The position numbers and the translations under genes were made by a program. A stretch of DNA of 26,910 bases from the UHGV virus genome UHGV-0040495. One strand, written 5' to 3'. The notes beneath the pieces were generated by a model, which did not search any database, was not told the origin of the DNA, and saw nothing but the letters and a program-made list of their open reading frames with translations. The stretch comes from a virus. Shown here piece after piece: positions 2 through 7,751 of this stretch; positions within the stretch are counted from its first letter, which is position 1; the number at the start of each line of letters is the position of its first letter.

Positions 2-76
2 GTCCTCTTAGTTAAATGGATATAACGAGCCCCTCCTAAGGGCTAATTGCAGGTTCGATTCCTGCAGGGGACACCA
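2..76 (+). tRNA. argW: tRNA-Arg (anticodon CCU)
   Basis: 75-nt sequence GTCCTCTTAG...GGTTCGATTCCTGCAGGGGACACCA folds as a cloverleaf: anticodon stem AGCCC/GGGCT, loop CTCCTAA with U33 and anticodon CCT, T-loop GGTTCGATTCC, 3' terminal CCA. Matches my recollection of enterobacterial argW, a known prophage integration site. Confidence 0.9.
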
Positions 77-2445: not shown

Positions 2446-2763
2446 TTAAATAATAGAATTATCGGAACGAACAACGCAGATAATAAACGTCACGACGCCG
2501 ATGACAGTAACATCGTCCAGGGCTTCGCCATCGATCGCTTCACCATCTTCAGTAATCAGTGACTTTCCTCTCAGCGTGGCAAGCTCCGTCCCGCCGCCGT
2601 GCTGTATAAGTAGTTGGCTACCCTGCTTTGGCTTCAGGGAGATATCCAGTACAACGTAACCACCAGATCGCTCGAAAACTAGCGTGTTTGGGCCGACATT
2701 GCAGATCGAGTTAACAGACAACCTTTGCTCGACGTAGTCCGTCGCTGGTGAAGGGAATCCCAT
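2446..2763 (-). CDS. Hypothetical protein (105 aa) with hydrophobic C-terminal segment; accessory (moron) gene
   Basis: Track ORF is 2446..2796. I prefer the internal ATG at 2763..2761 because it is preceded by GGAGG 9 nt upstream and overlaps the stop of the upstream gene (TAATG). C-terminal VTVIGVVTFIICVV is hydrophobic. AT-rich relative to flanking phage genes. Confidence 0.4.
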   Translation of the reverse strand: MGFPSPATDYVEQRLSVNSICNVGPNTLVFERSGGYVVLDISLKPKQGSQLLIQHGGGTELATLRGKSLITEDGEAIDGEALDDVTVIGVVTFIICVVRSDNSII

Positions 2764-3002
2764 TAGATCACCCTCCCCATGTTGGCCATCAGCCATAAAC
2801 GGTTTTCGCTATGGTCCGGCGTCTTATCGACGAAATACGTCTGCTCGCGTGCGATCCAGGAGTTCGCCTCCACCTCGGATAAGTGGATGCCGCGCCGGAG
2901 CAGTGCGGTAACGAAGTCTCGGGTGTGAAGGTACTGGAACCCCTTGGAACTGCGCAAAATGGACTCGCGGAAAGCCGCGGCGATGTCTGACTGACGGTGC
3001 AT
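2763..3002 (-). CDS. Hypothetical protein (79 aa); first gene of a two-gene accessory operon
   Basis: Track ORF extends to 3155, but the extension lies in an AT-rich intergenic region. The ATG at 3002..3000 is preceded by AGAGG 7 nt upstream. Its stop overlaps the next gene's start by 1 nt. No recognisable motif. Confidence 0.4.
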   Translation of the reverse strand: MHRQSDIAAAFRESILRSSKGFQYLHTRDFVTALLRRGIHLSEVEANSWIAREQTYFVDKTPDHSENRLWLMANMGRVI

Positions 3003-3167: not shown

Positions 3168-3377
3168 ATGAGTACAAAAAGTGACACTCTTGTTCGTAGA
3201 ATACTACGTAAATCAGATGGCCTGGGCCTCAAGCTCAGCAAGTCTGGGATCGACTACGAGACCCTACAGTCACATGGATGGGCTGAAGTTTCAGATGGCA
3301 CTAACACGATAATGGTGGAGCTTACTGATGGCGGTAAATTGCAATTCTTCTCATGTGTCAAACATCTGAGCGCATAA
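3168..3377 (+). CDS. Hypothetical small protein (about 69 aa) transcribed opposite to the structural operon
   Basis: ATG at 3168 (the track uses GTG at 3138). Ordinary amino-acid composition but no clear Shine-Dalgarno and no recognisable motif. Convergent with the 252-aa gene. Confidence 0.3.
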   Translation: MSTKSDTLVRRILRKSDGLGLKLSKSGIDYETLQSHGWAEVSDGTNTIMVELTDGGKLQFFSCVKHLSA

Positions 3378-3381
3378 CTCG

Positions 3382-4140
3382 TTATTGCATCGCCAGTAAA
3401 AACTGAGAGACAGATATTTTTTCTGCTGAGGTAAGAATGCCGTTCATCAACAGACAAGACTTAATGTACTTGGTACTTGTTTCGCTGTTGTTATCAGTTT
3501 TTCTACCAAGCAGTACATTATTAGTACCTGCCACCCTGGTCCCGGGAAATGTTTCACTCCCGGAAATAAGAGTTCCAGTTTCAGGATTAAATATATCTAC
3601 TGTAACGGAGCCTTGAGTTATCGATGCGCAAAATGCAAACATATCTCCGACTGCGATTGCGGTTGGGAATGTAGCGTAAGCATAACCAGCTGAAGATTGT
3701 CCGTTATTTTGTCCAACACAAAAAAGACTTCCTGTGCCGTTTGTAAACCCTACCGAAAAACCACTTGCAGCAGACCCACTGCCAGCAAAATCTGCAATCA
3801 TATGGGCGTTAAGTGATGCGCCTGCTGGATTGCGCTTGGCAACCCCACAAACAGATAATGACAGAGTAGCCTTCTGATTAGTATCCATGTAATCTGTTGT
3901 ATTTACAGATATATATCCAGGAGAATTGTTTACATTTCCATGAATGACTGCCGGAGAATCTTTATTATAAGAGTTGTAGGTTATGTCGGTTACGGGGTCC
4001 CCAAAATAGAAACCAGCATAAGGAGTTGCACCTGTGGTTGGCAGGCCAATAAACCAGTTTGACACATCAAAGTCAGATAAAGTTTTCATTCCAGAGATAA
4101 CTGGAAGAGTGGCGTCTATATAAATAGCTGATATCGGCAT
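3382..4140 (-). CDS. Beta-rich Gly/Ser/Thr/Asn-rich protein translationally coupled to the esterase tailspike; possible fibre-associated adhesin or receptor-binding module
   Basis: 252 aa. Start lies 2 nt after the stop of the 715-aa fibre gene. Composition is typical of phage receptor-binding or distal-fibre domains. AT-rich codon usage. Confidence 0.4.
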   Translation of the reverse strand: MPISAIYIDATLPVISGMKTLSDFDVSNWFIGLPTTGATPYAGFYFGDPVTDITYNSYNKDSPAVIHGNVNNSPGYISVNTTDYMDTNQKATLSLSVCGVAKRNPAGASLNAHMIADFAGSGSAASGFSVGFTNGTGSLFCVGQNNGQSSAGYAYATFPTAIAVGDMFAFCASITQGSVTVDIFNPETGTLISGSETFPGTRVAGTNNVLLGRKTDNNSETSTKYIKSCLLMNGILTSAEKISVSQFLLAMQ

Positions 4141-4142
4141 TA

Positions 4143-6290
4143 TTAAGCTCCCAGGAAAAATTCTTTTTTGATCTTTCTCGTTAGTACATATGCGCCCAAG
4201 GCGCTAAGATGCAAGGCATCTTCCCACGCACCTCCTGAACTGCTATACACTTTGGGGAATAATTGATAACCACTAATGAAATTTACATTATATTCAACCG
4301 CTATTTCCCTCATTGCTTTATCGTATTCTGACAGTGCGGGTGTTCCTGTGGCGTTACACTGTGCAGGGGACATAAGGCAAATGCAAATATCAGGAGTTGC
4401 GCTTCTATATTTAGTAATGATTTCAATAATCCCAGATTTGTACTCAGCTAGCCCCTGACTCATCCGGAAGTCATTCGTTCCAAGAATAATAAAAAGGAGG
4501 TCTATATCAAGGTATTGAGCTACTGGCTTTATCCATGATGAAAAGTTGAAATAGTCACTTGCAAATGCTCCTCCATTACCCATCCTGGATACAGTCACCC
4601 CTGATGATATTGAGTTATTTTTACCATACATACCAAGAATGGAAACAACACCAGTACCGGTGCTTTGGATTGTCACCGTATGTGCAGTAGCGCTAAGTCC
4701 GCTGAAATCATACTTCTTGGCAGTCCCTGTATTCCCTCCCGTGATTGTTACAGGTGCATTGCTGTCGATGGTGATGGTGAACGTTCCAGACCCATCATAG
4801 TAAAATACCGAAAGATTTGTTACGGTCACGCCCGTCCATACGAGCGAACCAACAGTGTTGTTGTTGTAGTATCCGTTGCCATCAGGGCCACAGCCATACG
4901 GCGGAATGTTCGTGTTATTGCTGCCACCGTCATATTTCGTAAAGTTTGTTGCGGTTACTGGTGATATTCCAGACATGACACCATCTGTTCTGTTTGAACA
5001 ACTAATCCAGCCAGGGTCTTTGTATGTACCACCAAGAATATTAATTAAAGACTGAGGAATGGTGTTTTTCTCTGTCCACGAATCGCCGGTAAAAGCAATG
5101 TTTAGGCTGGTAGACTGGCCAGCAAAAATACGGCTATTTTTGAAAAGGAACTTGTACTGATCTCCTTCGATGAAGGAACGTACCGCATCAACTTCCCCAC
5201 CAGACACCAGGTTTTTGACATATTCCTGCAATACCGGGCCAAGACCTGGAGCATCGAATAGCCCACCATTAAACCAAGCATATACGTTCCCTTGTTGGTC
5301 ATATAAAAAAGGAAAGTAATAAGGTGAAAAGTCTCCTTGCGGTATAAACTTCTGGGCCCATTCGTTTGGAATTTCAGAAACAACCTGTGTAACATTTGGC
5401 CCCAGTCCGGCCACATCAAATTTTCCGCCATCAAACCATGCTGGCACCATACCATTCCTGTCAAAGAAGGCCGGGAAATAACCAGGCCTGTATTCACCTG
5501 GGACGAGGCGTTCATTAATTTTATTATCGATTGTTTTTGAAGAAGGAGAGATTACTCCTGTAGGCTGCAAAGTTCCGGAGTTGTTTATATATTCATTTGC
5601 AAGAGAGCTATCATCCGCGCTTGTCACCCAGCATTTCGCTCCTGGCTGTATGTTCCCTGCGTCAGCATCAGCCTGTGCCGCAGCCAGCGTCGGAAACTCG
5701 CGGGTTGTCCCTGTTATGGCCGCTGTACCCGGCTGCTTCGCCTGCAGTACGGCCACACCTGCTTTGTTTTGATACTGCCATGCAGCAGAAAGCGCATCTG
5801 GCCCCTGGGCTACCCAGAACGACTGGCCGTCAGTAGTTGCTGCCAGCCCTGCGATGGTGCCATCAGGATCGCTGGCAGTCTTATAGAACGTGAACTTATT
5901 CTGTGCGTAGTCAGAAGCGTTATTTGCAAACTCTTCAGCCTGTGCTGCTGATGCAGCTGCTTGCTGCATGTACTGCGCAATCACATTCAGCGTATCCGCC
6001 GTCATCATGTTGGCAACCATGTCGTTTGCCGCCCACGCACGCGCCAGCGTTCCTTCCTGCGCACGCTCAATCGTGAAGATGTCTCCAGCCTTAGCAGTCA
6101 CGTTCACGATCTCAACCTGTGAGCCGGTGGCGGCATCGGTGAGAGTGAGTTTAAAGTAGCTCTCGCCTGCCACAGCGTCAGGGAACTCGGCACCAGTTCC
6201 AGCGCTAACGATCAGCGACGTGTCGGTTGCGCTGATAGCAGAAGCCAGCGTGCTTTCTGCGTTGTTTGTAGCCAAAAGGGTTAGTGCCAT
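4143..6290 (-). CDS. Tail fibre/tailspike protein 1 with C-terminal SGNH (GDSL-type) esterase domain
   Basis: 715 aa. N-terminal anchor paralogous to fibre 2. C-terminal region carries SGNH blocks: FTGDSW (block I GDS), LGTNDF (block III GxND) and DALHLS (block V DxxH). GGAGG Shine-Dalgarno 5-6 nt upstream of the ATG at 6290. Confidence 0.75.
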   Translation of the reverse strand: MALTLLATNNAESTLASAISATDTSLIVSAGTGAEFPDAVAGESYFKLTLTDAATGSQVEIVNVTAKAGDIFTIERAQEGTLARAWAANDMVANMMTADTLNVIAQYMQQAAASAAQAEEFANNASDYAQNKFTFYKTASDPDGTIAGLAATTDGQSFWVAQGPDALSAAWQYQNKAGVAVLQAKQPGTAAITGTTREFPTLAAAQADADAGNIQPGAKCWVTSADDSSLANEYINNSGTLQPTGVISPSSKTIDNKINERLVPGEYRPGYFPAFFDRNGMVPAWFDGGKFDVAGLGPNVTQVVSEIPNEWAQKFIPQGDFSPYYFPFLYDQQGNVYAWFNGGLFDAPGLGPVLQEYVKNLVSGGEVDAVRSFIEGDQYKFLFKNSRIFAGQSTSLNIAFTGDSWTEKNTIPQSLINILGGTYKDPGWISCSNRTDGVMSGISPVTATNFTKYDGGSNNTNIPPYGCGPDGNGYYNNNTVGSLVWTGVTVTNLSVFYYDGSGTFTITIDSNAPVTITGGNTGTAKKYDFSGLSATAHTVTIQSTGTGVVSILGMYGKNNSISSGVTVSRMGNGGAFASDYFNFSSWIKPVAQYLDIDLLFIILGTNDFRMSQGLAEYKSGIIEIITKYRSATPDICICLMSPAQCNATGTPALSEYDKAMREIAVEYNVNFISGYQLFPKVYSSSGGAWEDALHLSALGAYVLTRKIKKEFFLGA
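5235..5492 (-). repeat. Internal tandem duplication (two ~31-aa repeats) within tail fibre 1
   Basis: YRPGYFPAFFDRNGMVPAWFDGGKFDVAGLGP (aa ~267-297) and FSPYYFPFLYDQQGNVYAWFNGGLFDAPGLGP (aa ~322-352) share the pattern YFP..D..G.V.AWF.GG.FD..GLGP. Confidence 0.55.
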
Positions 6291-6312
6291 GTCTCCTCCG
6301 GGATATAGGCAT

Positions 6313-6341
6313 AAAAAAACCCGCCGAAGCGGGTTAGTTTT
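6313..6341 (-). terminator. Rho-independent terminator downstream of the lipoprotein gene
   Basis: On the minus strand, stem ACCCGC/GCGGGT with a 4-nt loop is followed by a U7 tract. It lies between the lipoprotein stop (6359) and the fibre start (6290). Confidence 0.6.
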
Positions 6342-6358
6342 TGTTGATTACTCTTGTT

Positions 6359-6991
6359 TTAATATGCATTTCGTATCGTTGTTGTTGCATCATCAATTCC
6401 GTTCTTGCTTAGAATCCAACATGATCTTGCAACATCAGCAAATTGACTTCTTACTTCAGGTGATAACCCTGGCTCTTGGTTAACGTCATTTAACATTTGC
6501 TCCAAAGAAATACCTCGCCTCTGACCGATACCAGCAGCACGGCAAAGGTTCCTTATATACAAATCAAACTCAGCTTGGTCATATTTATTTCTGGCCATAA
6601 CCAAGTAATAAACGCTATTGAGTTCATTCGATGCATTCATTACTTCCCTGCTTCTAACACATGAAACGTCTTTGTCGCACTTCTGATTATTTAGCCTATC
6701 AACCTCTTTTGAATAGTAATCATAAGTGCAACTTTCATCTTTTGAGTTGAAGCAGGTTAAAACAAGACCATTAAGAAATGCTTCATTCTCGCCATTCAAA
6801 CCAATTAACTCATTCCTTATTTTGGGGAAATTTTGCAATTGACCATTATATGATGGCATCCATTTAATTAAGGCATCTCTTTTTTCTTGCAAAGTTTCAG
6901 CAGAAGAAAAATCTCTAGATTTTTTATAAGCATTCGTTCCACATCCAGCAAGAAAAAATGAAATTGTTAATACAAGTATCATTCTTTTCAT
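6359..6991 (-). CDS. Cysteine-rich lipoprotein (moron-encoded); candidate superinfection-exclusion or envelope factor
   Basis: 210 aa. N-terminal MKRMILVLTISFFLAGCG is a signal peptide with lipobox L-A-G-C. Mature part has several Cys. AT-rich gene flanked by its own promoter-like element and terminator, inserted between baseplate and tail-fibre genes. Confidence 0.75.
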   Translation of the reverse strand: MKRMILVLTISFFLAGCGTNAYKKSRDFSSAETLQEKRDALIKWMPSYNGQLQNFPKIRNELIGLNGENEAFLNGLVLTCFNSKDESCTYDYYSKEVDRLNNQKCDKDVSCVRSREVMNASNELNSVYYLVMARNKYDQAEFDLYIRNLCRAAGIGQRRGISLEQMLNDVNQEPGLSPEVRSQFADVARSCWILSKNGIDDATTTIRNAY

Positions 6992-7011
6992 AACGACCCC
7001 GGAGAATTTTA

Positions 7012-7051
7012 TTGATGCATAAATTCTACACTATTAGTGCATTGCATCAAT
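7012..7051 (-). promoter_or_regulatory. Candidate promoter with flanking inverted repeat (operator-like) upstream of the lipoprotein gene
   Basis: On the minus strand: -35 TTGATG (7050..7045), 16-nt spacer, -10 TAGAAT (7028..7023). Inverted repeat ATTGATGCA (7011-7019) and TGCATCAAT (7043-7051) brackets the promoter. Confidence 0.35.
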
Positions 7052-7751
7052 CAATAATCTCAACGGTTACTGTCTGATAGAACGGCATGTGCAGAAGCCC
7101 GCTATCCATGGCCTGCTTGAAGAATATGGCGAACTCGAAATCCTCGGTGATCACAAAGGCCGTATCCTTCTGGTTGTACTTCCTGGAGTTATAGGCCGAT
7201 GCGTTGTAGATGGCGCTACGCGTGAACCTACGCCGCCCCTTATAGATGGATATCACGATACCGCCATCCACAAACTGAATCGATATACTCCACCGCTGGT
7301 CATTGAGAATGTCAGTGCCATTCACTCCCAACAGGAACCGCAGAATACGCCGCTTTATCCATGGGATGGAGAAATAGAAGCCGTCACCTTTGTAAAAATT
7401 CCAGGTCATGATCCGCTTAAAAAGGTCATCGGAGACAACAACCTGGTTAGACTGGTCAATCACCCGGTACTCATTGAATGCCAGTTGGTTAAATTCGAAA
7501 GTGTTATATGGGCCTATCTCCTGCTGTTCGCTGCTGGAAATCACCGGCGGCAACACGCCATAGATGCCATGGGCAATCCATCTGAGCTGATCTCCGGTGT
7601 TGTAGTCACCGATAAAAATCGGCAGGTTGGCATTAACCATCCAGTCATAAATGCCCTGCGCCATCGAGTTATACGCAGTAAAAAACGCCCGCAGATTGTC
7701 ATCGTCGTTGTATTGCGTATACATATACGACCGGATGATATCGTCCAGCAT
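7047..7751 (-). CDS. Baseplate protein (P2 gpI-like / DUF2612-like position)
   Basis: 234 aa. Lies directly downstream of the J-like baseplate gene with a 1-nt gap. Assignment is by synteny (V-W-J-I-fibre order). The overlapping plus-strand ORF 7089..7802 is rejected. Confidence 0.5.
   Translation of the reverse strand: MLDDIIRSYMYTQYNDDDNLRAFFTAYNSMAQGIYDWMVNANLPIFIGDYNTGDQLRWIAHGIYGVLPPVISSSEQQEIGPYNTFEFNQLAFNEYRVIDQSNQVVVSDDLFKRIMTWNFYKGDGFYFSIPWIKRRILRFLLGVNGTDILNDQRWSISIQFVDGGIVISIYKGRRRFTRSAIYNASAYNSRKYNQKDTAFVITEDFEFAIFFKQAMDSGLLHMPFYQTVTVEIID

What the first reader, a model, noticed from the sequence alone, without database searches (positions are those of the whole stretch)
6311..7052. 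Self-contained lipoprotein moron with palindrome-bracketed promoter and its own terminator
A 210-aa Cys-rich lipoprotein (lipobox LAGC) is encoded in an AT-rich cassette inserted between the baseplate and tail-fibre genes. Upstream is a sigma70-like promoter (TTGATG, 16 nt, TAGAAT) whose -35 region and transcript start are bracketed by a 9-bp inverted repeat (ATTGATGCA / TGCATCAAT), suggesting repressor or activator control. Downstream is a strong intrinsic terminator. Lipoprotein morons next to receptor-binding genes in other phages (Llp/Cor-type) block the phage's own receptor to exclude superinfection. This protein is larger than those I recall and I do not recognise it.
Basis: partly seen in the sequence, partly recalled or inferred. 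Interest (0 to 1): 0.55.

Follow-up and report, generated by a model that had tools for sequence, protein, structure and literature searches.

The report
Orphan prophage lipoprotein in cargo slot
A prophage gene wedged between the baseplate and tail-spike genes encodes a lipid-anchored envelope protein of an uncharacterised family; it is one of at least ten interchangeable envelope-protein cargos found at this position, and it probably protects the lysogen's envelope, most likely against other phages, although that function is untested.

Summary
Window 6359-6991 (minus strand) encodes a 210-aa protein with a signal peptide, lipobox LAGC and six further invariant cysteines. GC is 35%, against 48% in the neighbouring genes.

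Three points need correction.
- The terminator is not the gene's own. It belongs to the phage backbone and sits in front of the tail-spike ribosome-binding site even in relatives whose slot is empty.
- The inverted repeat is not conserved. It is broken in 4 of 6 places that carry the identical protein, and it is absent in other lineages.
- The promoter's -10 element is conserved across every same-strand cargo type, so it belongs to the slot rather than to this gene.

Among 106 related loci the slot holds at least ten unrelated cargos, almost all secreted, lipoprotein or membrane proteins. Some slots also carry Arc/antirepressor modules, as in the P22 immI/sieA region.

The protein is all-helical (pLDDT 84). 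It has no Pfam, PADLOC, PDB or fold match and about 50 homologue clusters, all lipoproteins. It is under purifying selection (dN/dS 0.13). It reassorts freely against tail spikes, the second fibre and the tape-measure C-terminus, so a receptor-matched Llp/Cor model is not supported. Superinfection exclusion at a step after adsorption is my leading, untested guess.

The parts
6359..6991 (-). CDS of a 210-aa prolipoprotein (about 194 aa when mature). It is all-helical, with six conserved cysteines besides the lipid-attachment Cys.
   Evidence: ORF. Family alignment with invariant C17, C80, C88, C105, C111, C150 and C191. AF2 model with pLDDT 84 and ten helices. dN/dS 0.13.
6941..6991 (-). Signal peptide (residues 1-16) and lipobox L-A-G-C (nt 6941-6952). 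The +2 residue is Gly, so by the Asp+2 rule the protein is predicted to be sorted to the outer membrane.
   Evidence: Read directly from the sequence. Weak LPAM_1 hit. Lipobox kept in all homologues inspected. The sorting prediction is inferred from the established Lol-avoidance rule.
6997..7000 (-). GGGG Shine-Dalgarno-like element, 5 nt upstream of the ATG
   Evidence: Read from the sequence. Relatives have AGGGA at the same place.
7023..7050 (-). Sigma-70-type promoter: -35 TTGATG (7045-7050, overlapping the TGA stop of the baseplate gene), 16-nt spacer, -10 TAGAAT (7023-7028). Predicted transcript start near 7016.
   Evidence: Scan. A -10 of the form TAnnnT is kept in 19 distinct same-strand cassette upstream regions holding several unrelated cargo families, while the spacer sequences differ.
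7011..7019 (.). Downstream arm of the 9-bp inverted repeat, covering the predicted transcript start
   Evidence: Mutated to TGAGTCAAT in L022 and L024-L026.
7043..7051 (.). Upstream arm of the 9-bp inverted repeat. It overlaps the -35 element and the last codons and stop codon of the baseplate gene.
6311..6335 (-). Intrinsic terminator (stem 6318-6335, T-run 6311-6317) immediately upstream of the tail-spike ribosome-binding site. It is a backbone element and is hairpin-symmetric on both strands.
   Evidence: The same element occurs in RothC, Chronis and empty slots.
7047..7751 (-). Upstream conserved 234-aa gene, the last gene of the baseplate block (phrog_8212). It marks the left border of the cargo slot.
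4143..6290 (-). Downstream 715-aa tail fibre/spike gene. The N-terminus is conserved (97-100% in most of the Klebsiella-group loci compared, 78-96% in four), and the C-terminus is a variable GDSL/SGNH domain. It marks the right border of the slot.

Best explanation
This is one allele of a hypervariable accessory-gene slot inside the late tail operon of a temperate myovirus. The prophage is integrated at tRNA-Arg.

Shown:
- The gene encodes a prolipoprotein that is all-helical in the AF2 model and carries six conserved cysteines besides the lipid-attachment one. I infer that these form disulfide bonds in the periplasm.
- The family is small, confined to Enterobacterales prophages, under purifying selection, and has no recognisable relatives.
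- The promoter, whose -35 overlaps the stop codon of the baseplate gene, and the terminator in front of the tail-spike gene are fixed features of the slot. Unrelated envelope-protein genes are exchanged between them.

Inferred:
- The gene is transcribed from this sigma-70 promoter in the lysogen, independently of late transcription.
- There it protects the lysogen's envelope. The most likely role is superinfection exclusion at a step after capsule or primary-receptor recognition. It could bind a conserved envelope component, or a conserved part of the incoming tail tip such as the transglycosylase domain of the tape-measure protein.

The inverted repeat around the promoter is probably incidental.
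For: - Accessory status: the flanks are 92-95% identical to Klebsiella phages that carry other cargo. Slot length ranges from 67 to 2977 nt across 106 loci.
- Cargo types include small membrane proteins, secreted proteins of 131-154 aa, lipoproteins of 174, 187 and 210 aa, a 254-aa fusion, and secreted proteins of 230-322 aa. Some slots also hold Arc/antirepressor modules.
- Lipoprotein features are conserved in all homologues inspected.
- The identical protein is recorded in 167 blocks of the assembly collection.
- dN/dS is 0.13 against the 89% allele.
- The -10 element is conserved across cargo families and lineages.
- Distant members (about 30% identity in the one alignment to the window protein) again sit inside tail-gene clusters of other myovirus prophages. 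They lie after the SLT-bearing tape-measure gene or next to Arc/Arc/antirepressor genes. One has TTGATG-18-TAGAAT embedded in the upstream gene.
- P22 has the same architecture: a variable region inside the late operon, just upstream of the tail-spike gene, holds immI and the exclusion gene sieA (PMC8022706, read).
- Precedents for lipoprotein or periplasmic exclusion proteins are T5 Llp (PMC9586334), T4 Spackle (PMC7677548) and Ltp (PMC3952083). I took these from titles and abstracts listed.
Against: - There is no functional evidence of any kind.
- PADLOC finds nothing.
- The cargo does not co-vary with the tail spike, the second fibre, the tape-measure C-terminus or the baseplate hub. A matched receptor or tail-tip blocker would be expected to co-vary with its partner.
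- Expression in the lysogen is inferred only from a promoter consensus and its conservation.
- Some distant members overlap the upstream late gene, so they may be expressed late rather than in lysogens.
Confidence: 0.45

Rival explanations
1. Llp/Cor-type receptor mask. The lipoprotein would bind the periplasmic face of the outer-membrane receptor used by this phage's own receptor-binding protein and so block adsorption or triggering.
For: It is predicted to be an outer-membrane lipoprotein. The gene lies next to the receptor-binding gene. Llp and Cor set the precedent (PMC9586334, listed).
Against: The identical protein precedes tail spikes of 715 aa (GDSL), 790 aa (pectate-lyase-like) and 647 aa. 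The 89% allele precedes spikes of 1098, 1316, 780 and 778 aa. The window's own spike C-terminus (99-100% identity) occurs with the 174-aa lipoprotein and with the 233-aa secreted cargo. The same second-fibre C-terminus occurs with other cargos. These spikes look like capsule or O-antigen enzymes rather than protein-receptor binders. There is no sequence or fold similarity to Llp or Cor, and the protein is about three times their size.
Confidence: 0.12
2. Lysogenic-conversion fitness factor unrelated to phages. Examples would be a Bor/Iss-like serum-resistance lipoprotein, or an orphan immunity protein against periplasm-acting bacteriocins or type VI effectors.
For: The moron architecture matches lambda bor and lom (established knowledge). 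The protein is targeted to the periplasm or outer membrane and is disulfide-rich, like many immunity proteins. Independence from all tail modules fits a target outside the phage. The hosts are clinical Klebsiella and E. coli.
Against: No similarity to Bor/Iss or to any immunity family in Pfam, NCBIfam or PDB. In every context I looked up (about 23 lipoprotein-carrying loci, from close homologues to three distant members), the gene lies in a phage tail-gene cluster and never next to a toxin or effector gene.
Confidence: 0.25
3. Lytic-cycle accessory protein expressed with the late genes. It could protect progeny virions from inactivation on cell debris, or modulate lysis or tail assembly.
For: The gene sits inside the late operon on the same strand. 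In L111 and L107 the homologue overlaps or abuts the upstream late gene. T5 Llp is thought to serve debris protection (PMC9586334).
Against: Near-identical phages lack the gene or carry opposite-strand cargos in its place, so it is not needed for virion formation. A promoter is conserved. It has no spanin features: no C-terminal transmembrane segment, not in a lysis cassette, and too large for an o-spanin.
Confidence: 0.1
4. The palindrome is a genuine operator through which a phage or host regulator controls the moron promoter.
For: The 9-bp perfect repeat spans the -35 element and the transcript start, and it is uncommon by chance (P about 0.007 locally). In the sister cassette of the Chronis type a different 8-9-bp repeat (CTGTGGTG/CACCACAG) brackets the -10 and is kept across variants with different loop sequences.
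Against: The repeat is broken by two adjacent substitutions in 4 of 6 places carrying the identical protein, with no compensating change. It is only 8 bp in the 89% allele and absent from all other lineages of the family. There is no other copy of the half-site in the window. The upstream arm is constrained by coding sequence and by the -35 element.
Confidence: 0.1

Closest known systems
Phage 'morons' as defined for HK97/HK022 and lambda (for example lambda bor and lom)
   Same: An extra gene between conserved late genes, with lower GC than its surroundings, preceded by a sigma-70 promoter and followed by a terminator, encoding an envelope protein.
   Different: Here the promoter's -10 element and the terminator belong to the slot and are shared by many unrelated cargos, so the unit exchanged is essentially the gene alone. 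The protein has no similarity to Bor or Lom.
[quoted passage not shown]
   Same: A hypervariable region inside the late operon directly upstream of the tail-spike gene. It carries Arc/Mnt-antirepressor modules in some relatives and a lysogen-expressed envelope protein.
   Different: The virus type differs: a myovirus with a Mu-like baseplate order, against the podovirus P22. SieA is an inner-membrane protein, whereas this is a lipoprotein. No homology to any PHROG annotated as an exclusion protein was detected.
T5 Llp and phi80/N15 Cor exclusion lipoproteins
   Same: A phage-encoded outer-membrane lipoprotein whose gene lies next to a receptor-binding gene.
   Different: The mature protein is about 194 aa, against roughly 60-80 aa by my recollection. 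It is all-helical with six further conserved cysteines. There is no sequence or fold similarity, and it is not co-inherited with a particular receptor-binding protein.
T4 Spackle (inhibitor of the gp5 tail lysozyme; PMC7677548) and Streptococcus phage TP-J34 Ltp (a superinfection-exclusion lipoprotein, PMC3952083; by my recollection it targets the tape-measure protein)
   Same: Helical periplasmic or surface proteins that stop infection after adsorption by binding the incoming tail tip. The phages here carry an SLT transglycosylase domain in the tape-measure protein, and in Lonsdalea prophages the homologue lies directly after that gene.
   Different: No homology or fold match. No co-variation with the tape-measure C-terminus. 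Binding is untested.

Membership tests
Bacterial lipoprotein (Lgt/Lsp substrate) | N-terminal signal peptide with a positively charged n-region and a hydrophobic h-region, followed by a lipobox [LVI][ASTVI][GAS]C | tested here: met
   MKRMILVLTISFF-LAGC. The lipobox Cys is invariant in 30 aligned homologues and present in the 16 distant members whose sequences were read.
Bacterial lipoprotein (Lgt/Lsp substrate) | Actual lipid modification and membrane localisation | not testable with these tools
   Needs globomycin sensitivity, palmitate labelling and cell fractionation.
Phage moron | Present or absent between conserved flanking genes in related phages | tested here: met
   The flanks are 92-95% identical in Chronis, RothC and RothD, which carry different cargo. 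Empty slots of 67-69 nt occur in L095-L097.
Phage moron | Base composition distinct from the surrounding genome | tested here: met
   GC is 0.352 against 0.48 in the neighbouring genes and 0.524 in the window.
Phage moron | Own promoter | tested here: inconclusive
   The consensus match is 9 of 12, which is not above chance on its own. The -10 TAnnnT is conserved in all same-strand cassettes compared. The promoter belongs to the slot rather than to the gene. No transcript data are available.
Phage moron | Own terminator | tested here: not met
   The single hairpin downstream is the backbone terminator, which is also present in empty slots and with opposite-strand cargos. Some relatives (L012, L013, Chronis) have an additional cassette terminator. 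The window does not.
Phage moron | Expression from the repressed prophage | not testable with these tools
   Needs RNA-seq or 5' RACE of a lysogen.
Llp (T5) / Cor (phi80, N15) exclusion lipoproteins | Sequence or structural homology to Llp or Cor | tested here: not met
Llp (T5) / Cor (phi80, N15) exclusion lipoproteins | Co-inheritance with the cognate receptor-binding protein | tested here: not met
   The identical protein occurs with at least four tail-spike types. The same spike and the same second fibre occur with other cargos.
Llp (T5) / Cor (phi80, N15) exclusion lipoproteins | Blocks the phage's receptor | not testable with these tools
   Needs adsorption and plating assays.
T4 Spackle-type inhibitor of a tail peptidoglycan hydrolase | Homology to Spackle | tested here: not met
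   No hit in the PDB sequence or fold searches.
T4 Spackle-type inhibitor of a tail peptidoglycan hydrolase | The phage tail carries a peptidoglycan hydrolase domain that such a protein could target | tested here: met
   The window's tape-measure protein matches PHROG endolysin and tail-transglycosylase families over residues 475-615. PF01464 SLT hits the tape-measure proteins of sister prophages.
T4 Spackle-type inhibitor of a tail peptidoglycan hydrolase | Binds and inhibits that domain | not testable with these tools
   Needs a muralytic assay or complex prediction. The tools here do not accept multimer input.
Spanin (Rz1-type o-spanin or unimolecular spanin) | Located in the lysis cassette; a small proline-rich lipoprotein, or a lipoprotein with a C-terminal transmembrane segment | tested here: not met
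   The gene lies in the tail operon. The mature protein is 194 aa, helical and without a C-terminal hydrophobic segment. It is dispensable in sister phages.

The most novel reading that the evidence does not exclude
The 210-aa protein would found a new family of outer-membrane-anchored periplasmic proteins that exclude superinfecting myoviruses after adsorption, by neutralising a conserved part of the penetrating tail tip such as the SLT transglycosylase end of the tape-measure protein. That would make it a lipoprotein functional analogue of T4 Spackle with an unrelated fold. The slot it occupies would then be a promoter-and-terminator 'socket' through which temperate Enterobacterales myoviruses trade at least ten unrelated, uncharacterised envelope defences.
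Probability: 0.15. Interest if true: 0.65.

Novelty: new member of a known kind. Interest (0 to 1): 0.38.

Why it matters
If the cargo proteins are exclusion or envelope-defence factors, this slot gives a compact and easily recognised catalogue of at least ten uncharacterised envelope proteins. They are carried by common Klebsiella, E. coli, Enterobacter, Citrobacter and Yersinia prophages. They could influence the susceptibility of clinical strains to therapeutic phages independently of capsule type. The fixed promoter and terminator borders also make the slot a natural site for cargo exchange and for engineering. Taken alone, the gene in the window is an ordinary moron with unknown function.

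Tried and rejected
Searches that found nothing informative:
- Pfam, PHROGs, NCBIfam and PADLOC on the protein gave only signal-peptide matches and phrog_26209, which has unknown function.
- A PDB profile search returned nothing with E below 0.79.
- The afdb50 fold library was unavailable.
- The genome-contig scan with the family alignment found nothing. The wider alignment was too divergent to seed a scan.
- Viral-contig scans with three distant members found nothing.
- Pfam and PHROGs on seven alternative cargo types gave no functional annotation. Chronis gp22 gave only a sub-threshold hit to a putative colistin-resistance family.
- Rfam found only the tRNA at the end of the window.

Ideas considered and rejected:
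- The terminator as part of the cassette. It is a backbone element.
- The inverted repeat as a conserved operator. It is not conserved.
- A general 'palindrome around the -10' rule for the slot. Only two Klebsiella cassette types show it.
- A spanin or a virion structural role. The position and the gene's dispensability argue against both.
- Coupling to the tail spike, second fibre, tape-measure C-terminus or hub. None was seen, although flank truncation left many cells of that table empty.
Full report
**1. What is in the sequence**

On the minus strand, 6359..6991 is a 210-codon ORF beginning MKRMILVLTISFFLAGCGTN. It has a basic n-region, a hydrophobic core and the lipobox L-A-G-C, and seven cysteines in all.

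The cassette is AT-rich. GC is 0.32-0.40 across 6300-7050, against 0.48-0.57 on either side. The CDS is 0.352, against 0.482 for the baseplate gene and 0.476 for the spike gene.

Upstream on the same strand is a 234-aa gene (7047-7751, phrog_8212) that follows a Baseplate_J gene. Downstream is a 715-aa tail fibre/spike gene with a GDSL/SGNH C-terminal domain.

The consensus scan finds TTGATG-16-TAGAAT at 7050..7023 and a 7-bp hairpin with a T7 tail at 6335..6318. The hairpin folds at -13.2 kcal/mol, z = -3.0.

The 9-bp perfect inverted repeat lies at 7011-7019 and 7043-7051. A repeat of this size arises in 0.7% of shuffles of the local 100 nt and occurs in 9 of 537 real 100-nt windows of this sequence.

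The promoter scan by itself is not above chance: 2 sites were found against 3.2 expected.

**2. Genomic setting**

The window is the end of a prophage. It holds tRNA-Arg(CCU) at 2-76 and an integrase at 202-1398. The rest is a second tail fibre, a UmuD-like gene, the spike, the baseplate, a tape-measure protein that matches endolysin and transglycosylase PHROG families near its C-terminus, and a tail sheath, so this is a temperate myovirus.

The 1-kb region around the finding matches Klebsiella phages Chronis, RothC and RothD at 92-95%, but only in the flanks.
- Chronis carries a 230-aa secreted protein at this position.
- RothC carries an unannotated 133-aa secreted protein on the opposite strand.
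- A 60%-identical homologue of the lipoprotein occupies the same position in Yersinia phage vB_YenM_29.18, a temperate phage (PMC9224151 read).

The same cassette and neighbouring genes occur at 98.7-99.9% identity in three complete E. coli genomes, where PGAP calls the product a hypothetical protein.

**3. The slot is hypervariable, and its borders belong to the backbone**

I collected 106 loci carrying the 234-aa gene and measured the distance from its stop codon to the conserved tail-fibre start (M-A-L-T-L-L-A-x-N-N-A). The distance ranges from 67 to 2977 nt. The contents fall into these types:
- nothing (L095-L097);
- small membrane proteins of 91-101 aa on the opposite strand;
- secreted proteins of 131-133 aa and of 138 aa on the opposite strand;
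- a 153/154-aa secreted protein;
- a 174-aa lipoprotein;
- a 187-aa lipoprotein;
- the 210-aa family;
- a 254-aa fusion of this family's N-terminal half with the C-terminal domain of the 187-aa lipoprotein (L061);
- secreted proteins of 230-322 aa starting ASFDCxKAKxFAEKTIC;
- 2.3-3 kb versions that add Arc/Mnt-like repressors and an antirepressor to one of these envelope cargos.

None of the alternative cargos has a Pfam or annotated PHROG function.

- The terminator. An equivalent hairpin sits right in front of the tail-fibre ribosome-binding site in empty slots, in RothC with its opposite-strand cargo, and in Chronis, where an extra cassette terminator precedes it.
- The -10 element. Every same-strand cassette compared keeps TAnnnT at the aligned position (TAGAAT, TAGTAT, TACAAT, TAAAAT, TAATAT, TAAGAT and others), whatever its cargo family. 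The three inner positions and the surrounding spacer vary. That pattern is expected of a working sigma-70 -10 element. The -35 falls on the stop codon, or on the last codons, of the baseplate gene. Opposite-strand cargos lack the motif.

**4. The inverted repeat**

Of six distinct places carrying a protein identical to the window's, four read TGAGTCAAT instead of TGCATCAAT, with no compensating change in the other arm. The 89% allele keeps 8 bp. The Yersinia, Citrobacter and Enterobacter cassettes have nothing comparable.

The upstream arm is largely the I-I-D-stop end of the baseplate gene plus the -35 element. No other copy of the half-site exists in the window. I conclude the repeat is probably incidental.

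One thing keeps the operator idea alive at low probability. The Chronis-type cassette has a different 8-9-bp repeat (CTGTGGTG/CACCACAG) around its -10, and it is retained across variants with different loop sequences.

**5. The protein**

The word-indexed search found 15 clusters, from Klebsiella, Citrobacter, Yersinia and Enterobacter, none with a Pfam domain. A profile search of 1.84 billion representatives found only 50. All 16 whose sequences I read are lipoproteins.

The lipid-attachment Cys and C80, C88, C105, C111, C150 and C191 are invariant among 14 close homologues. The C-terminal half is very strongly conserved: YYLVMARNxYDQxEFDLxIRxLCKAAGxGQRRG...GLSPEVRGQF...CWxLSKNG...DGTTxIKN. 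The N-terminal and C-terminal halves each occur with other partners.

AlphaFold2 gives an all-helical model with ten helices, mean pLDDT 84 and pTM 0.63. Fold searches gave nothing informative:
- Foldseek against PDB gives nothing with E below 1.
- BFVD returns only a family member annotated 'Lipoprotein'.

PADLOC and NCBIfam give nothing beyond signal-peptide matches.

dN/dS between the window allele and the 89% allele is 0.13, with dS 0.47. The identical protein is recorded in 167 blocks of the assembly collection. The protein is therefore functional and common.

The +2 residue is Gly, or Ala in the other subfamily. By the established Asp+2 retention rule this predicts outer-membrane sorting. 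That is an inference.

**6. Does it match the receptor-binding genes?**

The identical protein is followed by tail spikes of 715 aa (GDSL), 790 aa (pectate-lyase-like) and 647 aa. The 89% allele is followed by spikes of 1098 aa (BNR_4), 1316 aa (GDSL), 780 aa and 778 aa.

Conversely, the window's spike C-terminus (99-100% identity) occurs with the 174-aa lipoprotein (L032, L039) and with the 233-aa secreted cargo (L034). The window's second-fibre C-terminus (99%) occurs with other cargos (L042, L053). The tape-measure C-terminus and the hub variant also reassort.

The table is incomplete because flanks were truncated. What is there argues against a blocker matched to this phage's own receptor-binding protein, which is the defining logic of Llp and Cor.

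**7. Distant members**

Homologues in the distant part of the family (30.7% identity to the window protein in the one case aligned directly) lie in E217/Pam3-like myovirus prophages.
- In Lonsdalea the gene starts 4 nt after the SLT-bearing tape-measure gene and is followed by Arc/Arc/antirepressor genes.
- In Enterobacter roggenkampii and Klebsiella it follows a baseplate gene and precedes Arc/Arc/antirepressor genes.
- In L111 it overlaps the stop codon of the upstream baseplate gene, has TTGATG-18-TAGAAT embedded in that gene, and is followed by a terminator before the sheath-initiator gene.

The family is thus a mobile single-gene cargo of tail operons in temperate myoviruses. It is repeatedly found beside secondary-immunity modules.

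**8. Interpretation**

[quoted passage not shown] Exclusion by lipoproteins or periplasmic proteins has precedents in T5 Llp (PMC9586334), T4 Spackle (PMC7677548), Ltp (PMC3952083) and the mEp phage lipoproteins (PMC11893012).

On that basis I commit to a lysogen-expressed outer-membrane lipoprotein that protects the envelope, most likely by excluding incoming phages after primary adsorption. My confidence is about 0.45 for the whole chain and about 0.85 for the parts actually shown: accessory gene, lipoprotein, purifying selection, slot architecture.

The rivals, with my confidence in each:
- a non-phage fitness or immunity factor (0.25);
- an Llp/Cor-type receptor mask (0.12);
- a late-expressed accessory protein (0.10).

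None of the functional steps has been tested.

**9. Novelty and score**

The gene is a new and so far uncharacterised member of a well-known kind of element, the prophage moron encoding an envelope lipoprotein. It is not a member of the Llp, Cor, Spackle, Ltp or spanin families.

The more useful result is the slot itself. It has fixed promoter and terminator borders and at least ten orphan envelope cargos. Variable regions next to tail-fibre genes are familiar to phage biologists, so the overall interest is moderate (0.38).

Noticed in passing
window 2-76 and 202-1398: tRNA-Arg(CCU) is followed directly by a tyrosine integrase gene. The window therefore starts at the prophage attachment site, and the tail genes read towards it.
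   Followed up: partly
L002 (RothC, PP934563) 3213-3614, + strand of the locus: The GenBank record annotates three tiny ORFs of 31-43 aa in the slot. The real cargo is probably an unannotated 133-aa protein with a signal peptide on the strand opposite to the tail genes. Homologues occur in L029, L094 and L102.
   Followed up: partly
L001, L031, L034, L044, L046, L052: first 60 nt after the baseplate-gene stop: Cassettes of the Chronis type (secreted ASFDC... protein) carry an 8-9-bp inverted repeat, CTGTGGTG/CACCACAG, bracketing the -10 element. It is kept across variants whose loop sequences differ. This looks more conserved than the repeat in the window and is unexplained.
   Followed up: partly
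window 6311-6335; L095-L097 slots; L111 about 7690-7720: A strong intrinsic terminator sits immediately upstream of the tail-spike ribosome-binding site in every relative, including those with empty slots. Late transcription must read through it, or the spike gene must have another promoter. How the spike is expressed is unclear.
   Followed up: no
L061 slot (254-aa ORF); L069 and L085 (187-aa lipoprotein); P0042, P0044, P0047: There is domain shuffling among slot cargos. The N-terminal half of the 210-aa family is fused to the C-terminal domain (KKGDLFYCKVAINP...) of the unrelated 187-aa lipoprotein.
   Followed up: partly
L026 9848-11335: In one Klebsiella prophage carrying the identical lipoprotein, a 495-aa reverse transcriptase gene (RVT_1) is inserted among the genes between the spike and the second tail fibre. 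It could be a group II intron, a retron or a diversity-generating element.
   Followed up: no
L112 (E. coli NZ_CP185938.1 3293049-3301809): The same cassette occurs in three complete E. coli genomes at 98.7-99.9% nucleotide identity. In the one I examined it has the same spike and baseplate genes around it. This suggests recent movement of this prophage between Klebsiella and E. coli.
   Followed up: partly
window 2446-2796: A UmuD-like gene (phrog_3469) lies between the two tail-fibre genes, near the attachment end of the prophage.
   Followed up: no
L004, L010, L014, L080, L082, L085, L088, L107-L110, L113: Arc/Mnt-like repressor plus antirepressor modules, resembling P22 immI, recur inside the tail operon next to the envelope cargo in several unrelated myovirus lineages.
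   Followed up: partly
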